A DNA stretch of 34,488 nt from an uncultured Myxococcales bacterium (lineage in GTDB: Bacteria > Myxococcota > Kuafuiibacteriia > Kuafuiibacteriales > Kuafuiibacteriaceae): NCBI GenBank assembly GCA_964463485.1, contig CAYXDO010000117.1:1-34488 (forward strand), written 5' to 3'. Within the stretch, counting starts at the first letter, position 1. Every line of letters begins with the position of its first letter. The notes beneath the pieces are model-generated. The model saw only the letters and a program-made list of their open reading frames with translations, searched no databases and was not told where the DNA came from. Below, piece by piece: positions 1 to 34,488 of this stretch. Made by a program: the position numbers and the translations under genes.

Positions 1-54
1 GACGCAGACGATCTGACGCAGACGCAGACGATCTGACGCAGACGCAGACGATCT
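1..54. repeat. Tandem satellite at the window 5' edge: 20-bp unit gacgcagacgatctgacgca (14-mer core gacgcagacgatct) x ~2.7
   Basis: Direct reading: gacgcagacgatctgacgca repeated head-to-tail from base 1. Its reverse complement (agatcgtctgcgtc) recurs in the array at the 3' end of the window. Confidence 0.85.
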
Positions 55-332
55 CCTGCCGGTTACGTTGGCGACTCGGTCGACAGCCCAGCCCTCGGGG
101 CGGGCGATCCGAAGTCACCCACCTCGGAGCACCCTGATCGTGCTGGCGCTCGGACCGAGCTAGGCGCCTACGGCGACAGCGTGGTGGCGTCCTACGTTCG
201 TTGATCGCGCTCAGCGACGGAAGCGGCCGCTTTAGCGGCTTGCCACTCTTCGCGACCGCGGGACGCGCTCGCGAGGACGCTAGCGCGTTGGCGCGAGCGA
301 GGCCAGCTCAGCAACTTGTGCGACGCCTCGAG

Positions 333-3143
333 TCATGGCTTCTGAGTGCCGTTGGCGGGCTCTTCGGGCAGGAGGGTTTGGATGGTGCGTCCGAGTTTGG
401 TGCCGCCGACGACATCGCGGAAGATCGAAGCGACGTCCTGACCTTTGAATAGGCTGACGAGGTTCATGTTCTGCGCGACCTCGCCGAGCAGCACCTTGTC
501 GCCGACCGCCTGCAGCGCCTCCACGAGCGCCGGCTGCACGGCCTTCCGCTCGTCCACGGTGGCCTTGGCCTCGGCGTCGCGGAGCGCGATCTGGGTGTCC
601 GCGAGCGCGCGCTTGAAGGCCGTTTCCTCCTCGTGCAGGAGGCGATTGGCCCTCGCCTCGGCCTCGGATTCGGCGATGCGACGGGTGACCAACGCGTCGG
701 ACGCCCGCTTTTCGCGATCGATCCGCGCGTCCAACACGGTGAGCTCACGCCAAGCCTCGAGCTCGGCGGCGGCGCGTTTTCCTTCTTCGTCGCCTTTGAG
801 TACGGCGAGCTTCTGCGCCTGGCGCAGCCGCAGGAGCAAGTCCTCGAGCGCAGCGCGGCGCTCTTCGCTCTCGCGCTGGAGCTCGGTCCGCTCCCGATCG
901 ACGTCCTGACGCAGCTTATCCGATCTGAGTTGCTCGGTGACTTGACGATCTCCAATGACGAGCGCGACGGACTCGCGCTGCACGCGATCGAGCAGAGTCG
1001 CGATCTCTTCGTCGAGGATCACACTCTGAAGCACCTCGACCTCCGTCACCTTCATCCCGTTCTCGGGGAACGAGCGACCCTTGCGCCCAGCGTCCGTGCG
1101 CTCCCCGAGGATGATGTCGCGGAGCAACGACGGGACGTTCGGCCACAGGTCGATGAGTCGCATTTGACGGCAACGGCTCCGCACCAACGATCGCAGGTGG
1201 TCGGTGAGCACGCCGACGTAGTTTTCGTGGTTGAACCACCGGTCCTTGAGCGCGGACTCGAAGACCACCTCGTAACTCACTGTGACATTGATACGGACGA
1301 AGTCGGCGGTCTCGAGGGTGATGACGTCGGAGACTCGGTTGCCCGCGGTTCGCAAGAAACACGTGCGGAGCATCTTCGCGTCCGACTTCGGCGTCCCCGT
1401 CGAGAGAGTCATCGGCACGAGTCGCTCGTCGTACTCGAGGAGCGCGACACACGGCCCTTCGATCACGCGTTGACCGGCGGCCGAGGAAGCGAGGGCCGCG
1501 GTGTTGTGGGCGACCGTGATGGAGACGGCCCAGGGCGTAGTGGTCGGCTCGCGGGTCATCTTGTGCGGCTCTTGAGCGCCGACCCAGAGATTCCACTCGT
1601 CGGTGGGGACGGTGCGGGTGATGTGCACTTCTTTGCGTGGGTCGACGAGGTAACTCTGTTTGCCGCGCACGAGGCGGGCCTCACCGGTGCTGAGGTCGCG
1701 GACGTAGATACCGGACTTTTGATCGATCCCGATGGCTTCGATGAATACGTCGGAGTGATCGTTGCCGACGTGCGGCTGTCCGGTAGCCGGGTGCAGCACT
1801 TCGATTTCATTGAAGGGGAAGAAGAAGCAATTGACTCCCGTCAAGATGAGCTCGTCGCCCGGGTGATAGGTGGCCTCGGTGAGATCGATGCCGCGCGGGA
1901 GCTTGTGGGTGAGCTTCTCCTTGGGGATGGGGGCGATGAAGCGGACCCACAGGGCGCGCTGGGGGAGGAGCTCGAACGCGTAATAGATGCGATTGTTCGA
2001 GCCCTTGGTCATGAAAGAGTCATACGGGCCGGGAAAGACTCGGGCCGGACCCACTTTGATTTGGCGTTTGCCGTCTGCGTCGAGGATCACGCAGAATTCT
2101 TTTTCGCCGAGCACCACGGCTTGCCGAACGAGGCGAGCCTTCCTCATCTCGCGCTCGAGAGCTTGGCGGTGAATGTCACTCGACAGCACTTGCACGAGGT
2201 CCGCGCCGACGGGTTCCTCGCGCTTCTCCTCGGGCGCTGGTGGGGCGGGTCGCGCGGCCTGCTGTCGAAACCGAGCGCTTTGATCGATGGCGACCTTTGC
2301 GTCCTTTTCCTTCCTCCTCAGCGCCGGCTTGGCCTCGAGCTCGGCCATTTGGCTTTCGGCCGCGAGCTCGTCGTAGGCGCGTGCTGGCGCAGGCGGAGGT
2401 GCCGCGGCGACGGCGCCAGCGGCTGCTGTGCCCGGCATGGGTGCGGACGCCAGGATCTTTCGCGCCATCGCAGCGGTGACCTGAGTTCCGTACGCATCCA
2501 CCGCCAAATCAGGAACGACGTCGACTCCGGTCGGAGGGACGTAGAACTGAGTATCGAGCCCGCGGATCACGACGAGCTGGCCACGCTTGAGCTCGACCGG
2601 AGCGACGGTGGAGATTCCGGTTTGCGGAGTGTCACCGACGTCTTCGGCGGTCGCGGCGGTGATCGCCGCCGAGCGCGCGGTGATCTCGTAGTAGGGCGCG
2701 GCGCGATCGACCTCGCCATATACTTTGACCACCAAATACTGATTGGACGCCAGCTCGTGGGCGTCGCGGACCTCGACTCTCTGCCCGGGCCGCAGAAAGA
2801 AGCTGCAAGGGCCGGGAATCATGTGGCGGGTGCCGTTCTTCAGGACCTTCTGTTCGTTGCGACCCGATCGGAACTTACCGTTGGGCCCGCCATCATTCTC
2901 CGCCAATGGGTTGAACAAGACGGCATACTGCGAATCAGCGAGCTCGACCATTCGCTGAGGTTGTCCAGAGGGGTCCTCGACGAAGCCCCCTTGCCCGTCG
3001 TCGATCACCACCCGATCGGCCGCCGTGGGCGACACCATCGTGGGGCCCACGTGCAAGATGACTTCGCCTTTGTCGTCGTCTTGCACCCAGAGGAATTGGC
3101 GTTCGGTGACCGGGATCTTTCGGCTTCCTCGTTCGTTGCCCAT
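333..3143 (-). CDS. Major vault protein (MVP) homolog with Vault repeats, an SPFH-like shoulder and a cap-helix coiled coil; bacterial vault-like protein
   Basis: The ORF runs 333..3281 (982 aa). The likely start is the ATG at 3143 (MGNERGSRKIPVTERQFLWVQDDDKGEVILHVGP aligns with the MVP N-terminus IRIPPYHYIHVLDQ...VEVGP). Segments recognisable from eukaryotic MVP: GIYVRDLSTGEARLVRGKQSYLVDPRKEV (cf. [27 protein letters not shown]) and DVITLETADFVRINVTVSYEVVFE (cf. shoulder [24 protein letters not shown]). Repeated MVP-repeat-like blocks are present (MIPGPCSFFLRPGQRVEV, FCVILDADGKRQIKVGPARVF). The long C-terminal heptad region is rich in E/R/A/L (RESEERRAALEDLLLRLRQAQKLAVLK...), like the cap-helix. 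An Ala/Pro-rich insertion is specific to this protein. Confidence 0.8.
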   Translation of the reverse strand: MGNERGSRKIPVTERQFLWVQDDDKGEVILHVGPTMVSPTAADRVVIDDGQGGFVEDPSGQPQRMVELADSQYAVLFNPLAENDGGPNGKFRSGRNEQKVLKNGTRHMIPGPCSFFLRPGQRVEVRDAHELASNQYLVVKVYGEVDRAAPYYEITARSAAITAATAEDVGDTPQTGISTVAPVELKRGQLVVIRGLDTQFYVPPTGVDVVPDLAVDAYGTQVTAAMARKILASAPMPGTAAAGAVAAAPPPAPARAYDELAAESQMAELEAKPALRRKEKDAKVAIDQSARFRQQAARPAPPAPEEKREEPVGADLVQVLSSDIHRQALEREMRKARLVRQAVVLGEKEFCVILDADGKRQIKVGPARVFPGPYDSFMTKGSNNRIYYAFELLPQRALWVRFIAPIPKEKLTHKLPRGIDLTEATYHPGDELILTGVNCFFFPFNEIEVLHPATGQPHVGNDHSDVFIEAIGIDQKSGIYVRDLSTGEARLVRGKQSYLVDPRKEVHITRTVPTDEWNLWVGAQEPHKMTREPTTTPWAVSITVAHNTAALASSAAGQRVIEGPCVALLEYDERLVPMTLSTGTPKSDAKMLRTCFLRTAGNRVSDVITLETADFVRINVTVSYEVVFESALKDRWFNHENYVGVLTDHLRSLVRSRCRQMRLIDLWPNVPSLLRDIILGERTDAGRKGRSFPENGMKVTEVEVLQSVILDEEIATLLDRVQRESVALVIGDRQVTEQLRSDKLRQDVDRERTELQRESEERRAALEDLLLRLRQAQKLAVLKGDEEGKRAAAELEAWRELTVLDARIDREKRASDALVTRRIAESEAEARANRLLHEEETAFKRALADTQIALRDAEAKATVDERKAVQPALVEALQAVGDKVLLGEVAQNMNLVSLFKGQDVASIFRDVVGGTKLGRTIQTLLPEEPANGTQKP

Positions 3144-3267
3144 GCCTGGCTCTGTAGCACCGTCTCGGCGCGGCTGAAAGCGCCGATCGAGCTTGGTGCC
3201 CGATCCATCGAGGTGCCGGCGCGGCGGGGCGTTGATTGCGCCGCCACGACCCCGCACACTTCGTGCG

Positions 3268-4890
3268 ATGGTGACATCCAAGGGGCCGAGGCTCCACGTG
3301 TCGGAATCCGGAGGTGGGCGGCTCCGTCTTTTCGGCTCGCTGCTGGGCGTGCGAACGCTCCTGTCGGCGCTGTGGCTGTGGGCGTTGACGTTACCTTTGC
3401 TCGCGCTGGCGGTGTTCCGAACCTACGAGAACCAACTCGTGCGTCGTACGGAGGAGGCACTCATTTCGGAGGCCGTGGTCGTCGGCGAGTCCGCCCGTCA
3501 GGTCGTCGATCCCGGCGCGACGACCCAGCTCGAGACCCCTCAGGGCGAGCCGTTCGTGCCGCTGCAGCCCACGCTCGATCTCCGGATAGATCAGCTTCAC
3601 GGAGTCGCCCGCAGAGCTGGCACCGCGACGACCTCCATCGAAGAGCGGTGGCGTCCGCTCACGGCGCTGCTCGAGCGCGCCGAGCTACGCAACCTCACGG
3701 GCGTTCGCGTGCTGGACTCGTCGGGTGTCGTGGTGGCTTCTCCGAAGCGCGAGGTCGGATACTCCCTCGCGCACCTTCCGGAGGTTCGCGCGGCGATGGA
3801 GGGTCGCTACGAGCCGGCGCTCCACGAGCGAGGTCGGCATGCCTCCGAGCCGCACCCAAGCAGCTTGTCGCGAGCCAGCGCGATTCACGTCTCGATCGCC
3901 GTTCCAGTGTTTTCGAAGCCGCGAAGCCAGGCTGGCGACGACGACGAAGTCATCGCGATCGTCTACGACAGTCGAACGCCGATGGATGTGGAGAAGTCGA
4001 TTTGGCGCCTTCGAGAAGAGCTCGTCGTGCCTGCGTTGGCGAGCATTGTGCTGACTCTGGGGTTGATGTTGTTGCTGTCGCGTCTCATCGCCCAACCGCT
4101 CGTGACACTCGCCGGGGCGGCGCGGCGGGTGGCGGACGGCCACCGAGGCGTCGCTCTGACTCCGCGTGGGTTTGCTCCCAAGGAGGTCGGTTTTCTGAGT
4201 GAGAGCCTCGAGCGAATGCGGACTCAGCTCGAAGGGCGAGCCGAGTACGTGCGCACGTTCGCGGCTAACGCGGCCCACGAGCTCAAGAGCCCGCTGACTT
4301 CGATCCGCGGGGCCGCCGAGCTCTTGCTAGAGGCGGAGATGAGTCGGGACCAGGCGAGAAAGTTTCTGGAGAACGTGCTCGAAGATGCCGTTCGCATGGA
4401 CAAGCTCGTTCAGCGGCTGCTCGTGCTCGCGCGCGTGGAGTCGTCCTCCCCGAACCGCAGCGACGTCGAGCTCGGCGAGCTCCTCGACGCGATCGCGGAG
4501 CGCCACCGGCGCCGCGGGCAGCCTGTACAGGTGGCGCACCCAGAAGCACCTGTTCGGCTCTTTGCGGACCCAGAGCAACTCGAAGCCATGTTCGGGAGCC
4601 TGATAGACAACGCCGTACGCCACGGCGGACCCGAGCCGGTCGAGGTGACGCTAGAGGTTCAAGGAAGAGCGGCGATCACGCGGGTGCGAGACCATGGGCC
4701 CGAAGTGCCCGAGGAGCTCATGAGCAATCTCTTTGAGCGTTTCTTCACTACCGAGCGAGCGCGAGGTGGCACTGGTTTGGGACTCTCGATCGTTCGAGCT
4801 GTCGCTGAGGGTCACGGGGGTGAAGTGCACGCCGTGCGCAGGGACCGCGGCCTCGAGCTCGTCGTGCAACTCCCGGTCAAAGATCCGTAA
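3268..4890 (+). CDS. Sensor histidine kinase with two TM segments, a periplasmic sensor domain, HAMP, HisKA and HATPase_c
   Basis: TM1 LLSALWLWALTLPLLALAVF; TM2 VPALASIVLTLGLMLLLSRLI followed by HAMP (AQPLVTLAGAARRVADG). H-box AHELKSPLTSIRGAAELL; N-box LIDNAVRHG; G-boxes RDHGPEVPEE and GGTGLGLSIVRAVAEGHGG. The start could lie anywhere from 3193 to 3349 (TTG, ATG or GTG candidates); the ATG at 3268 was chosen. The gene is divergent from the MVP gene. Confidence 0.85.
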   Translation: MVTSKGPRLHVSESGGGRLRLFGSLLGVRTLLSALWLWALTLPLLALAVFRTYENQLVRRTEEALISEAVVVGESARQVVDPGATTQLETPQGEPFVPLQPTLDLRIDQLHGVARRAGTATTSIEERWRPLTALLERAELRNLTGVRVLDSSGVVVASPKREVGYSLAHLPEVRAAMEGRYEPALHERGRHASEPHPSSLSRASAIHVSIAVPVFSKPRSQAGDDDEVIAIVYDSRTPMDVEKSIWRLREELVVPALASIVLTLGLMLLLSRLIAQPLVTLAGAARRVADGHRGVALTPRGFAPKEVGFLSESLERMRTQLEGRAEYVRTFAANAAHELKSPLTSIRGAAELLLEAEMSRDQARKFLENVLEDAVRMDKLVQRLLVLARVESSSPNRSDVELGELLDAIAERHRRRGQPVQVAHPEAPVRLFADPEQLEAMFGSLIDNAVRHGGPEPVEVTLEVQGRAAITRVRDHGPEVPEELMSNLFERFFTTERARGGTGLGLSIVRAVAEGHGGEVHAVRRDRGLELVVQLPVKDP

Positions 4891-5117
4891 GTACCGCAAG
4901 GAATTTCTCGAAAGACCCTAACAGGCTGCTGAAAAAGTCGCGATCTGAGAAGTCTACCCAGAGGATCGGCCGTTGCCGTCGGCGTCGCCGCAACTCATGA
5001 TCCCGTTCATCCCGCCATCTTCACCAACACGGACACGATTCGGTGCAACAGCGTCTGCGTCGGATGAGTTTCCGCACTCTTGGTCGGTCGTCCGCTCTCT
5101 CATGCGACCCACTCCGC

Positions 5118-5171
5118 TCGGCGACGGCGACGGCGACGGCGACGGCAACACAACGACGGCAACGGCAACGG
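5118..5171. repeat. Microsatellite (GGCGAC)n degenerating to GGCAAC/GACGGC units
   Basis: ggcgacggcgacggcgacggcgacggcaacacaacgacggcaacggcaacgg, read directly. It lies inside the 640-bp HK–activator intergenic region. Confidence 0.85.
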
Positions 5172-5330
5172 TTTTCGGGACATGGGATTTGTCTAGGTGT
5201 TCGAAATGATCAAGGAAATCGGTTTCAGCAGCCTGCTGAGGCTCCGCAAGGAAATAACTTGCAGCATTCCTCGAGCGCCAACAGTCGATCCCGTCATTCC
5301 TTGACGAGCCCTAAGTACACGTCCGTGGAA

Positions 5331-5475
5331 GTTCGTGACCACGCTGAAACCACAGAGGACGCGGAGAGAAGACACAGAGGACACAGAGAAGTGCTCATTC
5401 CATCATCTGTGTGCTCTGTGGGCCTCGGCTCTGTGCTCTCTGTGGTTTCTCCCGCGGTCACGAATTTGCGGGGAC
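5331..5475. repeat. ~145-bp imperfect-palindromic interspersed repeat, copy A (MITE/REP-like; cacagag-rich arms flanking a ggaatgagca core)
   Basis: The arms ttcgtgacc...gaaaccacagag...cacagag...ctcattcc and ggaat...ctctgtggtttc...ggtcacgaa are mutually inverted. The element matches 15044..15176 (opposite orientation, ~85% by eye) and 18586..18690 (same orientation, left arm shortened). Confidence 0.7.
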
Positions 5476-5530
5476 CTGAACTAAGCGCAGTTCCCCAAGC
5501 TCGTGATCAACGAAGTGGGCTACGAGGAGC

Positions 5531-7141
5531 TTGTCTCGACGACCTGCTGCTGGTGTAGACTCCGTGTTCTTGAGTCGCCGTGGTTCGAAACGCGACCAGC
5601 TTTTCTCGGAGACGCTGGAGCAGCCACCGGAGCCAGCGGCAACGTCGGATCGAGCGACTCTCTTCTTGACCGTGGCTTTTCACCCGGACCTGTCGCGCGT
5701 CGGTGACGAAGCCGTTGTGGAACGCGAAATCCGATTGTGCCGAACCGAGCCGGATTTCGTCCCACCGAGGGGAGGTGAGGCTTGGCCTCTCGCCGACGCG
5801 TTCGTTTCACGGCGGCCGGCCACGATCCGGGCTGAGGGTGACGGAGGAGCTACGTTGATCCGCAGCGCCGACTCGGTCCCGCTCGCGATCGGAGGGGTTG
5901 CGGTCGCGCACGAGACGCGACTCTCGGCCGGCGATCTCCAGCGCGGAATCGCGCTCGAGGTCGCCCAGCGCGTGCTCCTGTTGGTGCACCGGAGGCCTGC
6001 GCGCCGCCCTTCGCCGCCCGAGCTTCGGCTCGTTGGTGAGTCCGTCGAGCTCGATGAAATCAGGCGTCAAATCCTTCAGGTCGCCGATCTCGGGGTTCCG
6101 ACGTTGATCCTCGGTGAGACGGGGACCGGCAAGGAGCTCGTGGCGGAGGCCATTCATAACGCTAGCCGTCGGAGCTCGCTGCCATTCGTGAGTGTCAACA
6201 TGGCGGCGATCGCGCCGACCGTCGCCGCCTCCGAGCTCTTCGGCCATCGTCGCGGTGCGTTCACCGGCGCGGTGGGCGACCGCGTCGGCTTTTTTCAACA
6301 GGCTCACGGAGGCACCATCTTCCTCGACGAAGTCGGAGAGATGCCCGTCGACGTGCAAGTCATGCTCCTCCGCACCCTAGAGAGTGCGACAATTCAGCCC
6401 GTCGGAGCTCCTTCGACGCAGCCCATCGACGCGCGAGTGCTCTCGGCGACTGACTCCGACCTCTCGAAGCTCGTGGCTGAGCAGCGATTTCGCCCGGCCC
6501 TCCTGCATCGGCTCTCCGGCTTCGAAATTTCATTGCCTCCGCTTCGAAATCGTCGTGACGACCTCGGACGCCTCCTGAGTCACTTCCTTCAGAAGGAGCT
6601 CGCGGGGACGGGAGACTGGGATCTGGTGGAGTCGCGTATGAAAGATGCCCGTCCGTGGATCTCGTTGGACGTAGTGCGTTCATTCTTCGACTACGAGTGG
6701 CCAGGCAACGTCCGGCAGCTCCGGAACCTGGTTCGCCAGCTCGCGATCGCAAACCGCGGGGCCGACACGGCGACGCTGCCGGCGGCCATTCAGAGGACAC
6801 TCTCCGAAGGGCTGCTCGAGGCGAGCCCAAGTCGTCCGGCGGCGCGGACGGAGCGCCGCAAGCCGTCCGACGTGGAGGGCGAGGAGCTGATCTCCGCGCT
6901 CAAGGCGCACCGGTTCAACATCCACGCGACCGCGGAGTTTCTCGGAATCACGCGGCCCTCGCTCTACATGTTGATCGAAAAGAGCGATCATCTCCGAAAG
7001 GCCTCCGACATTTCCGCGGTCGAAATCAGGTTGGCGCACGCGGAGGCGAACGGGAACTTGAACCTCATGGCTGAACGGCTGGAAGTTTCGCCGCGCGGAC
7101 TTCGACTCAGGCTGGGCTCGCTCGGGCTGACCGAGTCGTGA
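5531..7141 (+). CDS. Sigma-54-dependent transcriptional activator (bacterial enhancer-binding protein) with an N-terminal FHA-like domain, AAA+ domain and C-terminal HTH
   Basis: Walker A LILGETGTGKELVAEAIH; GAFTGA motif RRGAFTGAVGDRVGFFQQAHGGTIFLDEVGEM; R-finger region; C-terminal Fis-type HTH HRFNIHATAEFLGITRPSLYMLIEK. The N-terminus has an FHA-like pattern (DAFVSRRPATIRAEGDGGATLIRSADSVPLAIGGVAV...LSAGDLQRGIA) and no receiver aspartate region. The ORF starts at TTG 5531 and the true start is uncertain. Its stop overlaps the next gene's start (GTGA). Confidence 0.85.
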   Translation: MSRRPAAGVDSVFLSRRGSKRDQLFSETLEQPPEPAATSDRATLFLTVAFHPDLSRVGDEAVVEREIRLCRTEPDFVPPRGGEAWPLADAFVSRRPATIRAEGDGGATLIRSADSVPLAIGGVAVAHETRLSAGDLQRGIALEVAQRVLLLVHRRPARRPSPPELRLVGESVELDEIRRQILQVADLGVPTLILGETGTGKELVAEAIHNASRRSSLPFVSVNMAAIAPTVAASELFGHRRGAFTGAVGDRVGFFQQAHGGTIFLDEVGEMPVDVQVMLLRTLESATIQPVGAPSTQPIDARVLSATDSDLSKLVAEQRFRPALLHRLSGFEISLPPLRNRRDDLGRLLSHFLQKELAGTGDWDLVESRMKDARPWISLDVVRSFFDYEWPGNVRQLRNLVRQLAIANRGADTATLPAAIQRTLSEGLLEASPSRPAARTERRKPSDVEGEELISALKAHRFNIHATAEFLGITRPSLYMLIEKSDHLRKASDISAVEIRLAHAEANGNLNLMAERLEVSPRGLRLRLGSLGLTES

Positions 7142-18550: not shown

Positions 18551-18585
18551 GGGCGTGCGAAGCCGCGCGATTGTACTGTCGACGA

Positions 18586-18690
18586 AGGACACAAAGAACT
18601 CCTCATTCCATCATCTTTGTGCTTGGGCTACCGCTCTGTGGTCTCTGTGGTCTCTGTGGTTTCTCCCGTGGTCACGAGCTTGGCGGGACG
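18586..18690. repeat. Interspersed imperfect-palindromic repeat, copy C (right half conserved, left arm shortened)
   Basis: ctcattccatcatctttgtgcttgggctaccgctctgtggtctctgtggtctctgtggtttctcccgtggtcacgagcttggcgggac matches the right half of copy A (ctcattccatcatctgtgtgctctgtgggcctcggctctgtgctctctgtggtttctcccgcggtcacgaatttgcgggg). Confidence 0.65.
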
Positions 18691-18783
18691 TGTATTTGGC
18701 GATGAATCGGGCACGGGCGCGGGCACGCCATGAGTCTCGGCGCGACGTTGGGTCCAGATTGGGGCTCGACACGGACGGCTTAC

Positions 18784-21330
18784 ATGGGGAACACTTCAGG
18801 CGTGCGACCGTTTCTTCCTCTTGCTCTCTGCTCAGCGATCGGGTGCACCTCCGAGGAAGAGGTGAAGCCGCGCTTGCCGCTCGATGAAGTCTTGCCCGAG
18901 GCGGTCGCGAGGGCTGGGATCGTCGCGACGCCGAGCGAGCTTCTCACCGGAGACACCGCCAAGGGCCGTATCGGCGATCTGAAGATCTACAATAGCAAGG
19001 TCGCATTCATCGTTGGTCGAGCCGGGGATGGTCGTGGGTACGTGCCCTACGGAGGTGGAGTGATCGATGCCGACCTGGTGCGGGCGGTCGGAGAGCCCGG
19101 GCGTTCTACGTTCGGCGAGATCGTCACCACGCTCGACTTGGCCGTGCTGCACCCTCAGACCGTGGAGGTCGTCGCCGACGGATCCGGCGGGGGTCCGGCG
19201 GTCGTGCGGGCGACCGGGCGTGAGGACGCGTTTCCGTTGTTCTCAGTGATGTTGGCTTCGCTGTTCGGCGTGCAGAAGCACGAGCTGGTCTGGAGCGTCG
19301 ACTACATCCTCGAGCCCGGAGCTCAGGCGCTGAAGATCGAGCACACGTTGCAGAACGTCGGGAGTGAGAACATCGAGATCGGGCTGGTGCTGAATGGGTA
19401 CATGTTCGGCGACGGCGCCCGTCCGTTCTTGCCTGGCTATGGGTTTTCGTTTCCGGCCACCGGAGTCGTCGTGGACTACTTTGCGGCGATCGCCGACGAA
19501 GTGAGTTATCTGACGGGGGACTTGTCGGAGGAGCTCTCTTTCATCGTGACTCAGTCGGGGATCTCGATGGCCGGATCGCGCGGACCGATTCGGATCCGAC
19601 CCATCGAGAAGGTGACGTTCTCTCAAGTCATCATCGTCGGAGATGGAGATGTCGCCAAGGGGCAGTCGATCTGGCGCGCGCTCCAGGGCCCGAACGGGGC
19701 GGTCGCGAAGGTCGAGGGTCGAGTGTCGACCTCCGACGGAGCGAGCGTCGCGGGAGCGATCGTCCATGCGATCGAAGTCAGCCCGCGCAAGGAAGGCGTG
19801 GACTACGCGTCTCAGACGAGGAGCGCTCCCGACGGCTCGTATGCGATGAGCTTGCCGCACGGAGAGTATTCGCTGGTCGCGACCGCGTCGGGCTATCCGC
19901 CAAGCGAGGCCAAGCCGGTGAGTGTCTCGGCGGGCGCGACCGTGGACTTCCAGATCGGTTCGCCCGGGACCATCGAGTATTCGATCAAGGACGCGGCCGG
20001 CGCGCCCTTACCGGCGAAGATCTCGGTTCGCGCGGGTGTGGGCGCAGAGCGTCTACCTTCGAGATACGGGATCCGCGGGGAGCCGAGCGGTGTGCTCTTT
20101 ACCGAGTATGCCATCACGGGCAGCGGCACAATTTTGCTCCCGGAAGGTGAGTATGAGGTCATCGTCTCTCGTGGTCTCGAATACGAGATCCACGAAGAGC
20201 GGGTCCGAGTCGAGCCCGGAGGATCTCACGCGCTCGCTGCGATCTTGCCGCGGGTCGTCGACACGACGGGGTGGATGTCGACCGATACTCACATTCACTC
20301 GCAGCTCTCGCCCGACAGTCCCGACCTCTTCAGCTTCAAGGTCAAGGCGATGGTCGTCGAGGGCTTGGAGCTCCCGATTTCGACCGAGCACGAGGCGATC
20401 GGCGACTTCAATCCGGCGATCGAGGCGCTCGGGCTCGGGGCGTGGATGAAGGGTGTGATCGGCAGCGAGGTCACGACCTATGCTTACGGGCATTTCAACG
20501 CATGGCCGCTGTTGCTCGACCCGGAGCTCCCAGGAAATGGCCGCATCGAGTGGTATTTCAAGAAGCCGGCGGAGACCTTCGCGCTGATTCGAGCCCGTGA
20601 CCAACCGGTCTTGCAGGTGAACCATCCGCGGTCGCCTTCGATCGGTGGATATTTCTCGGCGATGGGTTTGGCTGCGGGGCGGCTCGAGGTGACCAGGACC
20701 GATCAATGGTCTGACGACTTCGATTTGATCGAGGTGGCGAATGGGTGTCCGGTGAGCTCGATCGAGTCAGAGACGATGCCCGACTGGTTTGCGTTCCTCG
20801 ACGCGGGGATGGCCAAGTTCGCGGCGGGATCGACGGACAGCCACAAGGCGTCCACGGGAGAGATGGGGATCCCGAGAACCTACGTGCGGATGGGCTCGGA
20901 CGATCCGAGAGCCGCGTCGCTCGACGTGTTCAAAGCGGCGACGCGCGCGGGCAAGCAGTTCGTGACGTGTGGGCCGTTCGTCGAGATTTCGGTCGGGAGT
21001 GCGGGGATGGGAGAGGTTGCGAAGCTCACCGGGGACCTGGTCGAGGTGAAGGTGAAGGTGCAAGCGCCGAGCTGGGTGGATGTGGACGAGGTCGAGCTCG
21101 TCGGGCGTGGGGGTGTGGTGGTCAAGCGTGCAGGCGTGCAGGCCTCTACGAATGTGCTCCGTTTCGAGGGTACGCTGACGGCGTCGGTGTCTCCGGGTCG
21201 GGATGGGTGGGTGATCGCGCGGGTTCGTGGGGATCGCCGGCATGAGGTGTTCGCGCGAGGGAGCTCTTCGTATGCGTTCACCAATCCGGTGTTGTTGGAT
21301 GGAGACGGCGACGGGAAGTTCGGAAGGTGA
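18784..21330 (+). CDS. Lipoprotein with a carboxypeptidase-regulatory-like beta-sandwich domain and a PHP/CehA-like metal-dependent hydrolase domain
   Basis: The ORF starts at 18730; the second ATG at 18784 gives MGNTSGVRPFLPLALCSAIGC (lipobox). CarbopepD_reg-like region: GRVSTSDGASVAGAIVHAIEV...DGSYAMSLPHGEYSLVATASGY. Metal-binding-like motif STDTHIHSQLSPDS and histidine/aspartate clusters typical of PHP/CehA hydrolases. The domain assignment is from motifs only. Confidence 0.55.
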   Translation: MGNTSGVRPFLPLALCSAIGCTSEEEVKPRLPLDEVLPEAVARAGIVATPSELLTGDTAKGRIGDLKIYNSKVAFIVGRAGDGRGYVPYGGGVIDADLVRAVGEPGRSTFGEIVTTLDLAVLHPQTVEVVADGSGGGPAVVRATGREDAFPLFSVMLASLFGVQKHELVWSVDYILEPGAQALKIEHTLQNVGSENIEIGLVLNGYMFGDGARPFLPGYGFSFPATGVVVDYFAAIADEVSYLTGDLSEELSFIVTQSGISMAGSRGPIRIRPIEKVTFSQVIIVGDGDVAKGQSIWRALQGPNGAVAKVEGRVSTSDGASVAGAIVHAIEVSPRKEGVDYASQTRSAPDGSYAMSLPHGEYSLVATASGYPPSEAKPVSVSAGATVDFQIGSPGTIEYSIKDAAGAPLPAKISVRAGVGAERLPSRYGIRGEPSGVLFTEYAITGSGTILLPEGEYEVIVSRGLEYEIHEERVRVEPGGSHALAAILPRVVDTTGWMSTDTHIHSQLSPDSPDLFSFKVKAMVVEGLELPISTEHEAIGDFNPAIEALGLGAWMKGVIGSEVTTYAYGHFNAWPLLLDPELPGNGRIEWYFKKPAETFALIRARDQPVLQVNHPRSPSIGGYFSAMGLAAGRLEVTRTDQWSDDFDLIEVANGCPVSSIESETMPDWFAFLDAGMAKFAAGSTDSHKASTGEMGIPRTYVRMGSDDPRAASLDVFKAATRAGKQFVTCGPFVEISVGSAGMGEVAKLTGDLVEVKVKVQAPSWVDVDEVELVGRGGVVVKRAGVQASTNVLRFEGTLTASVSPGRDGWVIARVRGDRRHEVFARGSSSYAFTNPVLLDGDGDGKFGR

Positions 21331-21378
21331 CTCGTCTCGATACTCGGTGCGCTTCGTGACGTAGGCCGCAGGTGTTTC

Positions 21379-22644: not shown

Positions 22645-22677
22645 CCGGTCGCTGAGAAAGTCGATTTCTCCGACCGC

Positions 22678-22786
22678 GACGGGCACGGGCACCACGTCCG
22701 TTCACCGAGCAGGATCGACACCGGGCACAGGCACGGACGGGCACGGGCACGGGCACGGACGGGCACGGGCACGGGCACGGGCACGG
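22678..22786. repeat. Microsatellite (GGGCAC)n with GGACGG variants
   Basis: gacgggcacgggcacc...gggcacggacgggcacgggcacgggcacggacgggcacgggcacgggcacgggcacggcatg, read directly. It lies in the convergent intergenic region between the parvulin gene and the amidohydrolase gene. Confidence 0.85.
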
Positions 22787-22819
22787 CATGAGCTTCCGAG
22801 CCTTTTCAGCCTGTTAGCG

Positions 22820-22900
22820 ATGATTCGGACTTTCGACTCGGACTTCCGACTGATTCCGATTCCGATTCCCGGACTGACTGACTAACTGACTAACTGACTT
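22820..22900. repeat. Low-complexity tract: gact/gattcc repeats ending in ctgactaa-type units that place stop codons in every forward frame
   Basis: tgattcggactttcgactcggacttccgactgattccgattccgattcccggactgactgactaactgactaactgactt. The amidohydrolase stop codon (TAA, minus strand) is within its last bases. Confidence 0.6.
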
Positions 22901-24005: not shown

Positions 24006-24024
24006 TCCGTGGTACACGGGCGCG

Positions 24025-24747: not shown

Positions 24748-24864
24748 CGAGCGCTGCGGAGATCGGCGACCTGTTCGGTGCTCCAGAGTGTTACCGAAAC
24801 TCCCGATACCGGGCTTTCGGACAGTACGATGGGACGAGATTTGTCCGATCAGAAGGTCGTCCGG

Positions 24865-25160
24865 CGTCAAGTGGCCGCAGGCGCGATGGTCGCTCCCTGG
24901 GGTTCCGCGTTGAGTAGCGCAGGTCCCAGGGGCCCGGCCGCTCCAGGGGTCCAGCAGCAAGTAGCCGCGGGCGAGATGCGGACCCAGGGGTCCGGCCGCT
25001 CGCAGGGGTTCAGCACCAAGCAGCCGCGGGCGAGTTGCTTGGGGTTCAGCGTTGAGTAGCCGCAGGCAAGATGCCTGCGGTCCCAGGGGTCGCTCCGGGG
25101 TCGCTCCTTGGGGTTCAGCGTTGAGTAGCCGCAGGCAAGATGCCTGCGGTCCCAGGCTTC
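24865..25160. repeat. Array of ~5 degenerate 60–75-bp repeats, each with a GC-rich hairpin (REP/terminator-like), between convergent genes
   Basis: The modules caag(t/c)(g/a)gccgc(a/g)ggcg... recur. Two near-identical copies of ggggttcagcgttgagtagccgcaggcaagatgcctgcggtcccagg are present (~25033 and ~25108). Hairpin: ccgcaggca-aga-tgcctgcgg (9-bp stem). Confidence 0.65.
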
Positions 25161-25695: not shown

Positions 25696-25804
25696 CTCAT
25701 CAATTCCCCCGGGCGTGAACACCACACCCGCAGCGATCGGCGTACTCCAACCAGGGGACTCGGTCTATGTTTTTCGGCAATTTTGTCGGTCGGTCGAAAG
25801 GAGG

Positions 25805-30784: not shown

Positions 30785-32104
30785 ATGGACCGAAGGAGCT
30801 TTCTTCGATCGATCGGTGGGCTCGCCGCTTCCGTGCCGTTGCTGTCTTCTTTGCGGGCTGCGAACGCGGGGGACCTTGTTTTTCCGCCGCGATTCGTCGT
30901 GTTTTTCCATCCGAACGGCACGATGCCAGGGGACTGGTGGCCCAAGCGGGCCGAGAGCGAGACTGACTTCGATCTGAATGTCATCCACGAGCCGCTCCAG
31001 CCGTTCAAGGACAAGCTCGTCTTGTTCCGTGGGATCGATCTCGCGGCGGGGAACGCCGGCCCTGGGGAGCCACACCAAAAAGGGATGGGTTCGCTGCTCA
31101 CGGGACGCGAGTTGCTCGAGGGCGAGTTCATCGGCGGCGACGGTTCGCTCGCTGGATGGGGAAGCGGAATTTCGGTCGACCAGGAGATCGCCAATCTCAT
31201 CAGCGGGCAGACGGCGAGGAAGAGCCTCGAGCTCGGCGTACGCGCGACCTCGGCGGAGGTGCGGGCGCGGATTTCTTATCTCGGCTCTTCGCGTCCTCTC
31301 CCGCCGCAAAACGACCCTACTCAGCTGTTCGAAGGGATGTTCAGTGATTTCAGCCGGCCGCAATCGGAGAACGAGCGGCACTGGGCCCGCCGAAGATCGG
31401 TGTTGGACGCGGCGACCAAGCAGATCGGTTTGATGATGCCCAAGCTGTCGAGTGAGGACCGGACGAAGCTCGGCCAACACCTGGAGCTCGTGGAGCAGGT
31501 GGAGCGACGGCTTCGTCCGGGCGCGGCCTCTTGCGAGGTCCCGGGCCGACCGGCGACGCTCGACCCGGACTCCGAAGAGACGATGCCGGCGGTGATGGAC
31601 TCCCAGATCGAGCTGCTCGTGATGGCGTTGGCCTGTGATCTCACGAGGGTTGCCTCTCTGCAGGTCTCGAACGCTCAGAATCAGATTCGATATCCTTGGC
31701 TCGACAGCGAAGGCGTCGGTCACTCGTTGTCGCACTCTGGTCCGAGCGATGTGAATGCTCACGACGAGTGGGTCAGGCGCGACACGTGGCTCGCCGGTCG
31801 GCTCGCGCACATGATGACGCTGATGAGCCAGATCCCGGAGGGCGACGGGACCTTGCTCGACCACACGCTGATTTTCTGGGGCAACGAGCTCTCGGTGGGC
31901 AATACTCACTCCCAGACGAACATGCCTTTTTTGCTGGCGGGAGGGGGATCCGGGCGGATCAACACGGGACGTTACCTTCAGCTGTCGACGGCGCGGCCCC
32001 ACAACGACCTCTTGGTGACGCTGCTACAGGCGTTTGGGAGCGAGGCCACGCAGTTCGGGAATCGCAATTTCAACACCGGATTGATCCCCGGATTGCTCAA
32101 GTGA
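30785..32104 (+). CDS. DUF1552-family protein with a twin-arginine (Tat) signal
   Basis: ATG at 30785, 1 bp after the upstream stop. Tat motif MDRRSFLRSIGGLAA. Family motifs FVVFFHPNGTMP, RGIDLAAGNAG…HQKGMGSLLTG, GVGHSLSHSG, FWGNELSVGNTHS. Confidence 0.8.
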   Translation: MDRRSFLRSIGGLAASVPLLSSLRAANAGDLVFPPRFVVFFHPNGTMPGDWWPKRAESETDFDLNVIHEPLQPFKDKLVLFRGIDLAAGNAGPGEPHQKGMGSLLTGRELLEGEFIGGDGSLAGWGSGISVDQEIANLISGQTARKSLELGVRATSAEVRARISYLGSSRPLPPQNDPTQLFEGMFSDFSRPQSENERHWARRRSVLDAATKQIGLMMPKLSSEDRTKLGQHLELVEQVERRLRPGAASCEVPGRPATLDPDSEETMPAVMDSQIELLVMALACDLTRVASLQVSNAQNQIRYPWLDSEGVGHSLSHSGPSDVNAHDEWVRRDTWLAGRLAHMMTLMSQIPEGDGTLLDHTLIFWGNELSVGNTHSQTNMPFLLAGGGSGRINTGRYLQLSTARPHNDLLVTLLQAFGSEATQFGNRNFNTGLIPGLLK

Positions 32105-34290
32105 GTTGGCGCTCCGCGATTCTGGTTTGTGGGTTGTCGTCCGCCTGCGGAAGTCAAGCTCCGGAACCCATCGAGATCGACCCTCTTGCTCACGTTGACC
32201 CGATGATCGGCACCGGAGGGTTGGGCTTTGGTGTTGGGAGTATTGCGCCGGGCCCGACTCGGGTCTTCGGTCTGGCGAAGCCTTCGCCGGACACTTCCAC
32301 GGGCGGGGGCGCGCCTGGGTTTTCGCACTGCGCGGGCTATTATTGGGAGGACCGAGAGATTCGCGGATTTTCTCAGATCCATCTCTCTGGAACGGGGGTG
32401 CCTGACTACGGCGCGCTGCTTTTCATGCCGATTCGGGAGGTCGAGCCTCCTTTGACGGAGCGCAAGTATCGGGCGAAGCTTTCGCACGAGCGCGAGTCCG
32501 CTGGGGTTGGGTTGTACTCAGTGGAGCTGGCGGAGGTCGAGACGCGGGTCGAGGTCGCGGTGACGCGCCGAACGAGTGTGTATCGACTCGGCTACGCGTC
32601 AGAGCGGCCGGCGCGCGCGCTCCTCGACCTTCGGCATGGATTGGGGGACGGTCATACTCTGGATGGGCTCATTCGTCGAGGTGAAGACGGCCGCTCGGTC
32701 GAGGGGTGGCTTCAGCATGCCGGGGACATCTCGGTTCGTTATGGCGGCTTCAAGTTGCACTTCGCGCTTCGAGCGGACACCGACATCGATCGCCTGATTT
32801 GGTTGAGCGACGGCTCGACCATCGCTGCGGATTCCCAGAGCGTCGGACCTGGAGCCGGGGTGGTGATGGACTTTGGAGCTGGCCCGAGGACGGTCGGCGT
32901 GCAAATCGGATTGTCTTTCGTGGACGTGGATGGCGCGCGAAGAAACCTCGAGGCTGAGTCGACCGGGCTGGATTCGGCGGTGGCGTCCGCGCGAAGTGAG
33001 TTCTCGGCGATCCTGGGGCGCGTCCGCGTCGAGGGCGGCGGCGCCGCCGAGTTGAAGAAGTTCTACTCGGCGCTCTATCACGTGTTCCAGATGCCTACTC
33101 TCCTGAGCGACGTGGACGGGAGGTACGTGGGGATCGACGGGAAAGTACACGTCGCCGATGGGTTCGAGTATTACTCCGATTTTTCGACGTGGGATACCTA
33201 TCGTACGCTCCATCCGCTGCTGACTTGGATCGCGCCCGAGTATCAGGAGGCCTTCGACCGGTCGTTGCTCGCGATGATGGACGCCACGGGGCACGTTCCC
33301 GAGTGGCCTTTGGCGACAGGAGAGACTTGGACGATGCTCGGATTCCACGGGGAGACTGTGCTCGTGGATTCGGCCCTCCGAGGGAGTCGCGCCGTCGAGG
33401 CGGGTGAATTGTTCGACCGGCTGCGACGGCTGGCCCTCGAGCCCGCGGAGGGTGAGCGGGCGAGTCGTGAGTGTTTGGCGAGCTGGAAGGAGCGAGGCTA
33501 CTGTGTCGCCGACGAAGGGACTGGGGCGGCGAGCCAGACCGTCGAGAACGCCTACAACGACTTCGCGCTGGCCGAGCTCGCCGCTCAGCTTGGGCGCTCG
33601 GACGAAGCCAGGGAAATTCGAGAGAAGGCGGCCCGATGGACCGGAACGGTCAACCCGCAAGGGTTCGTTCAGAGCCGTCGCGCGGACGGTTCTTTCCCGG
33701 GAGGATTCAGCGACGACTTGTTTCACGAGGACTACGTGGAAGGAAATGCGCGGCAGTGGACGCCGGCGGTGGCGCTCGACGTGGCGGGGCTGGAGCGGGC
33801 AGTGGGTCATGATCGTTTGATCGAGCAACTCACGAGGCTGTTCGAGGAAGCCGAGAAGGCCGAGGACACGCCACTGCCGGACCTTTGGTACTGGCACGGC
33901 AACGAGCCCGACATTCACGCCGCGTATTTGTTTCTGGACTTGGGGAGGCCCGAGCTCGCGGAGAAGTGGATTCGGTGGATCGAAACAGAGAAGTACAGGG
34001 CCGGGCCCGACGGGCTAGACGGCAACGACGACGGAGGCACCCTGTCGGCGTGGTACGTCGCGTCGGCGCTTGGGCTGTATCCGCTCGCCGGGAGCTCGCG
34101 ATGGTGGGTCGGCGTCCCGGCCTTTCCGAGGGCCCTCGTCGCGACGAGAGCTGGGACCATGGAGATTTCGACCGAAGGACCGATCGACGGGCACGTCGTG
34201 AGTGTGAAGTTGGGAGACGAGCAGCCGTTGGGACGGCAGGTCGAGCAAGGGCAGATTCTGAGTGGACGGCTGGAGTTCAGGCTAGAGTGA
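32101..34290 (+). CDS. Glycoside hydrolase family 92 (alpha-1,2-mannosidase-like)
   Basis: GTG 32101 overlaps the DUF1552 stop (GTGA). Signal/lipoprotein-like N-terminus MSWRSAILVCGLSSACGS. GH92 signatures: VDPMIGTGG…GSIAPGPTRVFGLAKPSPDT…GFSHCAGYYWEDREIRGFSQIHLSGTGVPDYGALLFMP; C-terminal WYWHGNEPDIHAAYLF and LDGNDDGGTLSAWYVASALGLYPL. The ORF track's 5' extension to 31696 overlaps the DUF1552 gene and was rejected. Confidence 0.85.
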   Translation: MSWRSAILVCGLSSACGSQAPEPIEIDPLAHVDPMIGTGGLGFGVGSIAPGPTRVFGLAKPSPDTSTGGGAPGFSHCAGYYWEDREIRGFSQIHLSGTGVPDYGALLFMPIREVEPPLTERKYRAKLSHERESAGVGLYSVELAEVETRVEVAVTRRTSVYRLGYASERPARALLDLRHGLGDGHTLDGLIRRGEDGRSVEGWLQHAGDISVRYGGFKLHFALRADTDIDRLIWLSDGSTIAADSQSVGPGAGVVMDFGAGPRTVGVQIGLSFVDVDGARRNLEAESTGLDSAVASARSEFSAILGRVRVEGGGAAELKKFYSALYHVFQMPTLLSDVDGRYVGIDGKVHVADGFEYYSDFSTWDTYRTLHPLLTWIAPEYQEAFDRSLLAMMDATGHVPEWPLATGETWTMLGFHGETVLVDSALRGSRAVEAGELFDRLRRLALEPAEGERASRECLASWKERGYCVADEGTGAASQTVENAYNDFALAELAAQLGRSDEAREIREKAARWTGTVNPQGFVQSRRADGSFPGGFSDDLFHEDYVEGNARQWTPAVALDVAGLERAVGHDRLIEQLTRLFEEAEKAEDTPLPDLWYWHGNEPDIHAAYLFLDLGRPELAEKWIRWIETEKYRAGPDGLDGNDDGGTLSAWYVASALGLYPLAGSSRWWVGVPAFPRALVATRAGTMEISTEGPIDGHVVSVKLGDEQPLGRQVEQGQILSGRLEFRLE

Positions 34291-34292
34291 GG

Positions 34293-34320
34293 TCGACCGG
34301 GCCTGACTGGCCCGGATCGA
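34293..34320 (+). terminator. Stem-loop downstream of the GH92 stop (tcgaccgggcc-tgact-ggcccgg(a)tcga)
   Basis: 7–11-bp GC-rich inverted repeat with a 5-nt loop, 3 bp after the TGA. No clear U-tract follows, as is usual in high-GC genomes. Confidence 0.45.
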
Positions 34321-34325
34321 ATCGT

Positions 34326-34488
34326 CCTGCGTCAGATAGTCCGCGTCAGCGTCAGATCGTCAGCGTCTGCGTCTGATCGTCAGCGTCTGATCGTCAGCGT
34401 CTGATCGTCAGCGTCTGATCGTCAGCGTCAGATCGTCTGCGTCAGATCGTCTGCGTCTGCGTCTGCGTCTGCGTCAGATCGTCTGCGT
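34326..34488. repeat. Tandem satellite array at the window 3' edge (13/14-mer units cgtcagcgtctgat and cgtctgcgtcagat), reverse complement of the 5'-edge array
   Basis: Read directly: ...gatcgtcagcgtctgatcgtcagcgtctga... followed by cagatcgtctgcgtctgcgtctgcgtctgcgtcagatcgtctgcgt. The terminal part is the reverse complement of gacgcagacgcagacgatctgacgca at bases 1..54. Confidence 0.85.

What the first reader, a model, noticed from the sequence alone, without database searches (positions are those of the whole stretch)
1..54. Window begins in a satellite array that is the reverse complement of the array at the window end
Bases 1..54 are tandem gacgcagacgatct(gacgca) units. The last ~160 bases of the window are tandem units whose terminal portion is the exact reverse complement (cagatcgtctgcgtctgcgtc...). 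Inverted satellite arrays at both ends of a 34.5-kb block are unusual. Possible explanations are a contig terminated at both ends by a dispersed satellite family, terminal inverted repeats of a large mobile or linear element, or a recombinogenic inverted-repeat pair that could flip the whole segment.
Basis: seen in the sequence. Interest (0 to 1): 0.55.

Follow-up and report, generated by a model that had tools for sequence, protein, structure and literature searches.

The report
Contig broken at a repeated satellite
The window is a stretch of ordinary myxobacterial chromosome whose two ends sit inside copies of a real, lineage-private short tandem repeat, because short-read assembly stops in such repeats; the mirror-image look of the ends is not evidence for a mobile or linear element.

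Summary
Bases 1-54 are (GACGCA GACGATCT GACGCA) repeated 2.7 times. Bases 34321-34488 are an imperfect array of the reverse complement (10 unit matches against 0.12 expected by chance).

The window matches a 74,359-bp contig of a Polyangia-like MAG (JACQYO010000043.1). It is 100% identical except for about 31 nt at the left array edge.

That longer contig runs through the left array (about 190 nt) into ordinary chromosomal genes (DUF1565-like, GNAT, AAA, SRP54/Ffh, Wzy_C). It also runs about 1 kb past the window's right end. There the array continues for about 800 nt, degenerates, and flips into the opposite orientation for at least 300 nt.

Three independent Logan contigs each stop 29-53 nt after entering the satellite. 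The 34.5-kb block carries housekeeping and signalling genes and no transposase, integrase, replication or telomere gene.

The satellite is built from GACGCW hexamers and GACGATCW octamers. It was not found as an array in 185,579 species genomes, 241 million metagenome records or 2.9 million viral contigs.

Best reading: a lineage-private intergenic minisatellite at two or more loci that breaks assemblies. Inversion of the block by recombination between the arrays cannot be excluded without long reads. Interest is low.

The parts
1..54 (+). Inner 54 nt of the left satellite array (GACGCA / GACGATCT modules, perfect 20-nt period). In the longer NCBI contig this array is about 190 nt and lies inside the contig.
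   Evidence: The full array is L031 13056-13245.
55..85 (+). A 31-nt non-repeat segment (CCTGCCGGTTACGTTGGCGACTCGGTCGACA) between the array and the flank shared with the NCBI contig. It is present in the window and in Logan contig L032. In the NCBI contig, array units of about the same length stand in its place.
   Evidence: 13 mismatches and 3 gaps, all in this stretch.
333..3143 (-). Major-vault-protein-like gene (936 aa). Its 3' end faces the left array.
   Evidence: Pfam MVP_shoulder and Vault_3. Exact protein P0001. Gene call in L031.
32101..34290 (+). Glycoside hydrolase family 92 gene (729 aa as called in the NCBI record). Its 3' end faces the right array.
   Evidence: GH92 N-terminal and catalytic domains; gene table for L028.
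34297..34315 (+). A 7-bp G+C hairpin (CCGGGCC tgact GGCCCGG) between the GH92 stop codon and the array. It has no T-run, so it is not a canonical intrinsic terminator.
   Evidence: Read from the sequence. The terminator scan found nothing.
34321..34488 (-). First 168 nt of the right satellite array, with units in the orientation opposite to the left array. Units are GACGCA/GACGCT plus GACGATCT/GACGATCA. In the NCBI contig this array continues for about 800 nt and is then followed by an inverted array.
   Evidence: The continuation is in L028 13543-14681.

Best explanation
The two ends of the window are the edges of two separate loci of one non-coding minisatellite family. The family is built from two modules, the hexamer GACGCW and the GATC-containing octamer GACGATCW, in varying order (14- and 20-nt periods). 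The host is the chromosome of an uncultured Polyangia-like myxobacterium.

The left locus is an intergenic array of about 190 nt downstream of a vault-protein-like gene. The right locus is at least 1.1 kb long and lies downstream of a GH92 gene. It consists of about 800 nt of array in one orientation, a short degenerate centre, and at least 300 nt of array in the opposite orientation (a head-to-head foldback).

The same k-mers occur in several arrays and on both strands, so a short-read assembly graph branches as soon as a k-mer lies wholly within the satellite, and contigs end there. The window is such a contig. Its inverted terminal repeats are a by-product of where the assembly stopped and of a 50:50 orientation outcome. 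They are not the ends of a genetic element.

Shown: the arrays, their module structure, the DNA beyond them, and the independent contig breaks. Inferred: the arrays arise and vary by replication slippage or unequal recombination and have no sequence-specific function.
For: 1. Source and continuation. Window proteins are encoded exactly on NCBI contig JACQYO010000043.1 (74,359 bp, GCA_016208175.1). Window 20785-34488 equals L028 1-13704 at 100%, and window 1-13143 equals L031 at 99.86%, with all differences in the left ~90 nt.

2. Left side. Beyond the array the contig carries a DUF1565-like gene, a 489-aa ORF, a GNAT acetyltransferase, an AAA ATPase, SRP54/Ffh and a Wzy_C protein. The far junction of that array is reproduced in Logan contig L083 from a third run, with 0 mismatches outside its first 6 array bases.

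3. Right side. The array continues over L028 13543-~14350 and then flips to the GACGCA orientation over 14382-14681, the end of the contig. The flip is not a perfect palindrome.

4. Contig breaks. Logan contigs end 29 nt (L032), 53 nt (L029) and 44 nt (L083) inside the satellite. The first 54 nt of the window occur twice more in the left array of the NCBI contig, while its first 55 nt are unique.

5. Coincidence argument. An arbitrary cut of a 74-kb contig would place both ends inside arrays with a probability of about 4e-5 (my arithmetic from the lengths above).

6. Gene content. The block encodes a histidine kinase, a sigma-54 activator, a Ser/Thr kinase, MatE, SurA, an acyl-CoA dehydrogenase, PSD/DUF1552 proteins and GH92. 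It has no transposase, integrase, Rep/Par, terminal protein or telomere resolvase. There is no match in plasmids or viral contigs.

7. Non-coding nature. The 14- and 20-nt periods break the reading frame. The GACGCA strand has stop codons in every frame, and the opposite strand has no ATG, GTG or TTG (the start-codon point is my reading of the repeat units). No Rfam or tRNA match was found.

8. Genome habit. Almost every longer intergenic region in the window holds some tandem array. Array density is 3.1 per 10 kb, against 2.1 in the sister MAG and 0.9 in more distant relatives.
Against: 1. Only two loci (three arrays) of the family were seen in about 45 kb of this genome, so "dispersed" in the sense of many sites is not shown.

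2. The join across the left array rests on a single assembly (the NCBI contig). That contig disagrees with the window and with Logan contig L032 over 31 nt at the array edge, so a local misassembly or misjoin there cannot be excluded.

3. The window's right end is not neatly explained by a k-mer of 55. Its terminal 41 nt and longer are unique within the DNA I could read.

4. GC skew is about -0.02 in the 9.7 kb to the left of the window and +0.09 inside it. The change is gradual, not a step at the array.

5. Synteny in relatives could not confirm the left join.
Confidence: 0.8

Rival explanations
1. Invertible segment. The left array and the oppositely oriented part of the right array act as substrates for homologous recombination that flips the 34.5-kb block, perhaps as a population polymorphism.
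For: The arrays are in inverted orientation, with perfect complementary tracts of 29-30 nt and 54 nt at 89%. A 45-nt prefix of the window recurs in inverted orientation inside the right array. The arms are about 190 nt and about 800 nt long. Mean GC skew differs between the left flank and the block.
Against: There is no direct evidence for either alternative arrangement. Recombination inside the arrays leaves all flank/array junctions unchanged, so the available contigs cannot show it. The GC-skew change is gradual and begins about 7 kb inside the block, not at the array. No site-specific recombinase is encoded nearby. The right locus also holds a directly oriented array, so the same logic predicts deletion as readily as inversion.
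Confidence: 0.07
2. The arrays are the terminal inverted repeats of a discrete 34.5-kb element: a composite transposon, a linear plasmid or prophage, or a circular replicon closed through the satellite.
For: The ends are inverted repeats. The GACGCA-oriented array at the end of the NCBI contig has the same orientation as the array at window base 1, so a circular join is geometrically possible. The NCBI join on the left differs by 31 nt from two other assemblies.
Against: The NCBI contig continues through the left array into chromosomal genes, including ffh. The far junction is independently confirmed. The cargo is housekeeping and signalling genes with no transposase, integrase, Rep/Par, terminal protein or resolvase. 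The arms are grossly unequal. The flip in the right locus is not a perfect palindrome, so it is not a hairpin telomere. There is no similarity to plasmids or viral contigs.
Confidence: 0.03
3. The satellite has a sequence-specific function. Examples are an array of binding sites for a DNA-binding or GATC/GACGC-recognising protein, or a foldback structure acting as a transcription or replication barrier. In that reading its placement after convergent or 3' gene ends is selected. This is compatible with the contig-break explanation for the window ends.
For: The two-module grammar is conserved across three arrays. The right locus can fold into a very long imperfect hairpin (-287.5 kcal/mol against -162 for shuffles, z = -17.6). 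A second inverted pair of hexamer arrays lies 1.3 kb beyond the left array (L031 14530-14604 and 14740-14814). Both loci lie downstream of gene 3' ends.
Against: No promoter or terminator consensus was found and no known RNA family. The family is absent from the sister MAG at the MVP locus and from all public collections scanned, so there is no conservation to argue for selection. Many unrelated tandem arrays fill the other intergenic regions, which points to a general mutational habit.
Confidence: 0.1

Closest known systems
Bacterial intergenic minisatellites / VNTR loci sharing a unit at several loci (for example mycobacterial MIRU-VNTRs); named from general knowledge
   Same: These are head-to-tail arrays of short non-coding units in intergenic DNA. 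The same unit family occurs at more than one locus. Array-edge and unit-order differences are seen between assemblies of otherwise identical DNA.
   Different: The units are much shorter (6 + 8 nt modules, against 40-100 nt for MIRUs). One locus is unusually long for a bacterium (at least 1.1 kb) and is arranged head-to-head. True copy-number polymorphism between strains was not demonstrated here.
Repeat-induced contig ends in de Bruijn graph assemblies (technical phenomenon, general knowledge)
   Same: Contigs from four independent assemblies stop a few tens of bases after entering the repeat. The 54-nt prefix of the window is repeated elsewhere, while the 55-nt prefix is unique.
   Different: The assembler and k-mer size used for the window are unknown. 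The right-hand break is not explained by the sequence I could see.
Foldback (FB) transposons of eukaryotes, whose long inverted arms consist of short tandem subrepeats (general knowledge, resemblance only)
   Same: The right locus has long inverted arms made of tandem subrepeats around a short non-repeated centre. The units are more degenerate near the centre.
   Different: There is no evidence of mobility, target-site duplication, multiple foldback copies or a transposase. The host is a bacterium, and one arm runs off the contig.
Terminal inverted repeats of linear replicons or transposons
   Same: Reverse-complementary sequence sits at the two ends of the window.
   Different: The DNA continues beyond both ends, the arms are unequal, and there is no end-processing or transposition gene.

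Membership tests
Bacterial intergenic minisatellite / VNTR family | Head-to-tail tandem copies of a short unit | tested here: met
   TRF finds periods of 6, 14 and 20 nt. The module parse gives GACGCW and GACGATCW in three arrays. L031 13059-13221 has 8.1 copies at 94% matches.
Bacterial intergenic minisatellite / VNTR family | Non-coding, intergenic position | tested here: met
   Both loci lie after stop codons (MVP stop at window 333, GH92 stop at 34290). The periods are not multiples of 3. One strand has stops in all frames and the other has no start codon (the start-codon point is my reading of the units). No gene is called over the 1.1-kb array.
Bacterial intergenic minisatellite / VNTR family | Same unit family at several loci of one genome | tested here: met
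   Two loci 34 kb apart hold three arrays. Genome-wide spread could not be measured.
Bacterial intergenic minisatellite / VNTR family | Copy-number or unit variation between strains | tested here: inconclusive
   Assemblies that are identical in unique DNA differ at the array edges (window and L032 against L031; L083 against L031). Assembly ambiguity explains this equally well.
Terminal inverted repeats of a transposon or linear replicon | The repeats lie at the physical ends of the element or molecule | tested here: not met
   The 74-kb contig continues 9.7 kb or more to the left and about 980 bases to the right.
Terminal inverted repeats of a transposon or linear replicon | The element encodes a transposase, integrase, terminal protein, telomere resolvase or replication functions | tested here: not met
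   Pfam scans of 19 ORFs covering the window show none. There is no plasmid or viral similarity.
Terminal inverted repeats of a transposon or linear replicon | Target-site duplication flanking the repeats | not tested
   The outer boundary of the right locus lies beyond all available sequence.
Hairpin telomere (covalently closed end read through as a palindrome) | Sequence after the turn is the exact reverse complement of the sequence before it | tested here: not met
   Around L028 14330-14400 the two sides differ in sequence and module order.
CRISPR array | Constant repeats separated by unique spacers, usually with cas genes nearby | tested here: not met
   The units abut without spacers, and no Cas domain appears.
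Foldback-type element (arms made of tandem subrepeats) | Long inverted arms composed of tandem subrepeats around a central loop | tested here: met
   This applies to the right locus only. The evidence is, and the fold with z = -17.6.
Foldback-type element (arms made of tandem subrepeats) | Mobility: several insertions with target-site duplications | not testable with these tools
   Only one such locus of this satellite is visible, and its outer arm runs off the contig.

The most novel reading that the evidence does not exclude
The satellite is not inert. The oppositely oriented arrays 34 kb apart would drive RecA-dependent inversion (or, with the co-oriented distal array, excision) of a 34.5-kb chromosomal block. 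The head-to-head array of at least 1.1 kb would then be a bacterial counterpart of foldback elements that structures the genome of this Polyangia lineage.
Probability: 0.06. Interest if true: 0.55.

Novelty: new member of a known kind. Interest (0 to 1): 0.15.

Why it matters
The main value is as a caution. Inverted repeats at the two ends of a short-read contig are expected whenever a repeat family occurs in both orientations, and they should not be read as element termini.

The biological residue is modest. It is a lineage-private, modular hexamer + octamer minisatellite in an uncultured myxobacterium, one locus of which is unusually long (at least 1.1 kb) and palindromically arranged. The genome also fills its intergenic regions with short tandem arrays.

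If long reads showed that these arrays mediate rearrangements, they would be a useful natural marker or driver of genome plasticity in Polyangia.

Tried and rejected
1. Collection scans with GACGCWGACGATCWGACGCW. Genome contigs gave 27 loci, metagenome contigs gave 45 loci and viral contigs gave 0. Every hit is an isolated single match in an unrelated organism. L079 is a trivial two-copy duplication. The scans therefore say nothing about spread within the source genome, which seems to be absent from or masked in those collections.

2. Protein search with the open-frame translation of the array, hoping to find spurious ORFs called over other arrays. It returned one irrelevant low-complexity hit. 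The negative result is uninformative because the array has no start codons.

3. Synteny test of the left join. The sister MAG (84% MVP identity) has a different downstream gene with no similarity to the NCBI left flank. More distant relatives have unrelated neighbourhoods. No conclusion is possible.

4. Looking for more DNA of the same organism through DUF1565 homologues. P0130 and P0147 come from unrelated samples.

5. GC skew as an inversion test. It was ambiguous.

6. Rfam, tRNA and promoter/terminator scans of the arrays and flanks found nothing.

7. Literature searches for myxobacterial intergenic tandem repeats and for contig-end repeats found nothing specific.

8. Hypotheses rejected: hairpin telomere (the flip is not palindromic), CRISPR (no spacers), and coding repeat (frame-breaking periods).

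Full report
**Observation**

The first 54 bases of the window are a perfect tandem of a 20-nt unit, GACGCA GACGATCT GACGCA (2.7 copies, 100% matches).

The last 168 bases (34321-34488) are an imperfect tandem array with 14- and 20-nt periods whose units are the reverse complement of those at the start. Perfect complementary tracts of 29-30 nt link the two ends, and 1-54 is 89% complementary to 34334-34387.

The 14-mer GACGCWGACGATCW (up to 1 mismatch) occurs 10 times in the window, all in the two terminal arrays: three on the + strand at the left and seven on the - strand at the right. Shuffled sequence gives 0.12 on average.

The complementarity is confined to the satellite and does not extend into the unique flanks.

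**What lies between the arrays**

The 34.5 kb between the arrays is 64% G+C. It encodes:
- a major-vault-protein-like protein
- a HAMP histidine kinase
- a sigma-54 activator
- a Ser/Thr kinase with a PEGA domain
- TPR proteins
- a MatE transporter
- a CarboxypepD_reg protein
- SurA
- an amidohydrolase
- an OmpA-like protein
- an acyl-CoA dehydrogenase
- a PSD/DUF1552 pair
- a GH92 glycosidase

Nothing resembles a transposase, integrase, replication or partition protein, terminal protein or telomere resolvase. The best homologues of the vault-like protein are from Polyangia/Myxococcota. There is no similarity to known plasmids, and the satellite is absent from viral contigs.

**Where the window comes from**

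Window proteins are encoded exactly on NCBI contig JACQYO010000043.1, which is 74,359 bp and belongs to MAG GCA_016208175.1, named "Deltaproteobacteria bacterium". They are also on short Logan contigs from runs SRR12113400 and SRR12113402.

Window 20785-34488 is 100% identical to L028 1-13704. Window 1-13143 matches L031 with 13 mismatches and 3 gaps, all within the left ~90 nt.

By coordinates the window corresponds to about 38895-73382 of that record. Both of its ends nevertheless fall inside arrays. For an arbitrary cut of a 74-kb contig I estimate a probability of about 4e-5. The window also differs from the record at one array edge. I therefore take the window to be an independently assembled contig of the same population that stops in the arrays.

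**Beyond the left end**

In the NCBI contig the left array is about 190 nt long (L031 13056-13245; 8.1 copies of a 20-mer at 94% matches).

Beyond it come a frameshifted DUF1565-like gene, a 489-aa ORF, a GNAT acetyltransferase, an AAA ATPase, SRP54/Ffh and a Wzy_C/TPR protein. This is ordinary chromosome.

The far junction of this array is reproduced in Logan contig L083 from a third run (SRR12113406). That contig is identical to the NCBI sequence except for its first six array bases.

One discrepancy remains. The window and Logan contig L032 have 31 nt of non-repeat sequence (window 55-85) between the array and the shared flank. The NCBI contig has array units of the same length there instead. 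This is either a local assembly or curation error, or real variation at the array edge.

**Beyond the right end**

After the GH92 stop codon (34290) and a 7-bp G+C hairpin, the array runs on in the NCBI contig for about 800 nt in the same orientation as in the window (L028 13543 to ~14350). It becomes progressively degenerate and passes a short non-repeat centre. At L028 14382 it switches abruptly to the opposite orientation (GACGCA...) for at least 300 nt, up to the end of the contig.

The two arms are not exact mirror images, so this is neither a hairpin telomere nor a simple foldback assembly artefact. As single-stranded DNA the region can form a very long imperfect hairpin (-287.5 kcal/mol, against -162 for shuffles, z = -17.6).

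The right locus therefore contains both orientations of the satellite. Whichever orientation the left array had, it would be "inverted" relative to one of them.

**Anatomy of the satellite**

All three arrays are built from two modules: the hexamer GACGCW (A, T, rarely G) and the octamer GACGATCW/Y, which contains GATC. They are mixed in varying order:

| Array | Module order |
|---|---|
| Left | 6+6+8 |
| Inner right | 6+8 with GACGCT / GACGATCA |
| Distal right arm | long (GACGCT)n runs |

The periods break the reading frame. One strand has stop codons in all frames, and the other is open but has no ATG, GTG or TTG (the start-codon point is my reading of the units). No gene is called over the 1.1-kb array. 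No Rfam family, tRNA, promoter consensus or terminator consensus was found.

**Contig breaks**

The Logan contigs stop after entering the satellite as follows:

| Contig | Distance into the satellite |
|---|---|
| L032 | 29 nt |
| L083 | 44 nt |
| L029 | 53 nt |

The window itself stops 54 nt into the left array. Its first 54 nt occur twice more in the NCBI version of that array, whereas its first 55 nt are unique. That is what a k-mer graph break looks like.

The right-hand break, 168 nt into an imperfect array, is less neatly explained. Suffixes of 41 nt or longer are unique in the DNA I could read. Either further copies exist elsewhere in the genome or the assembler stopped for another reason.

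**Distribution**

Exact scans with the degenerate 20-mer gave these results:

| Collection | Result |
|---|---|
| 185,579 species-representative genomes | 27 isolated single hits |
| 241 million metagenome records | 45 isolated single hits |
| 2.9 million viral contigs | no hit |

None of the hits was an array or came from a related organism.

The sister MAG (MVP 84% identical) has no array downstream of its MVP gene. The satellite is thus private to this lineage.

Its spread within the genome could not be measured, because only about 45 kb of the MAG was reachable. In that stretch it occupies two loci.

The genome is generally rich in intergenic tandem arrays. It has 3.1 per 10 kb, against 2.1 in the sister MAG and about 0.9 in more distant relatives. 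Several of the other arrays are also GACGNN-type hexamers or contain GACGCA (the rotations are my own reading). This suggests a general slippage-prone habit rather than a dedicated system.

**Interpretation**

The window is a chromosomal contig terminated at both ends by a repeated satellite family, and the inverted symmetry is incidental.

A mobile or linear element bounded by terminal inverted repeats is not supported, for these reasons:
- The DNA continues beyond both ends.
- The arms are unequal.
- The right locus carries both orientations.
- No mobility or end-processing genes are present.

Recombination between the inverted arrays could in principle flip the block. The tools here cannot detect that, because crossovers inside the arrays leave every flank/array junction unchanged. 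The GC-skew difference between the left flank (-0.02) and the block (+0.09) is gradual, not a step at the array, so it gives no real support.

A circular join through the distal right arm is geometrically possible. It is contradicted by the NCBI join and by the lack of any replicon functions.

**Comparison with known things**

The arrays meet the defining features of bacterial intergenic minisatellites: tandem, non-coding, and multi-locus. Strain-level copy-number variation is unproven.

The right locus resembles the architecture of eukaryotic foldback elements, with inverted arms made of tandem subrepeats, but nothing indicates mobility.

I file this as a new member of a known kind, of low general interest. 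The main lesson is methodological.

Noticed in passing
window 5348-5466 (+), 15052-15170 (-), 18582-18692 (+): Three copies (78-89% identical) of a dispersed element of about 125 nt. It contains CACAGAG/CTCTGTGG sub-repeats and folds into a hairpin of about 100 nt (-61 kcal/mol as RNA). All three copies lie in intergenic regions next to predicted gene starts (upstream of the sigma-54 activator, in the gap between MatE and the 516-aa ORF, and in the gap between the 626-aa ORF and the CarboxypepD_reg gene). It looks like a MITE/REP-like palindromic element or a small-RNA family. It has no Rfam match.
   Followed up: partly
window 333-3143 (-): A 936-aa bacterial homologue of the eukaryotic major vault protein (Pfam MVP_shoulder plus Vault_3). 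It has more than 200 homologues at 57-84% identity, nearly all from Polyangia/Myxococcota MAGs, and JGI names many of them 'major vault protein'. Its genomic neighbourhood is not conserved among relatives.
   Followed up: partly
L031 14530-14604 and 14740-14814 (about 1.3 kb to the left of the window in the NCBI contig): A second inverted pair of hexamer arrays (CGTCCA/CGCCCA units, which read as GACGTG-type on the other strand). The arms are 75 nt and 89% complementary, around a 135-nt centre. This is the same head-to-head architecture as the right satellite locus, on a smaller scale.
   Followed up: no
window 5119-5171, 22722-22899, 24925-25150, 25815-25881; L031 18839-19006: Nearly every longer intergenic region carries its own tandem array. 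Examples are (CGGCGA)n, (CGGGCA)11 followed by GATTCC and GACT repeats, 59-nt and 36-nt repeats, a 13-mer x5 that reads GACGCA+TTGAGCA on the minus strand, and a 13-mer x12.9 at 98% identity next to ffh. Array density is about three times that of more distant relatives.
   Followed up: partly
window 55-85 compared with L031 13056-13087: The window and a Logan contig carry 31 nt of non-repeat sequence where the NCBI contig has satellite units of about the same length. All other unique DNA is identical. The cause is either a local assembly or curation error in one version or real variation at the array edge.
   Followed up: partly
L031 13377-14443 (left of the window): The DUF1565 / right-handed beta-helix gene next to the left array is split into 268-aa and 87-aa ORFs. 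Its homologues are about 340-465 aa, so it is probably a frameshifted pseudogene or a sequencing error. The same 262-aa call appears in Logan contigs.
   Followed up: no
window 1-34488 compared with the 9.7 kb to its left (L031 13144-22811): Mean GC skew is +0.09 in the window (rising to 0.12-0.15 in its middle and at its right end) and about -0.02 in the left flank. The change is gradual over the first ~7 kb of the window.
   Followed up: partly
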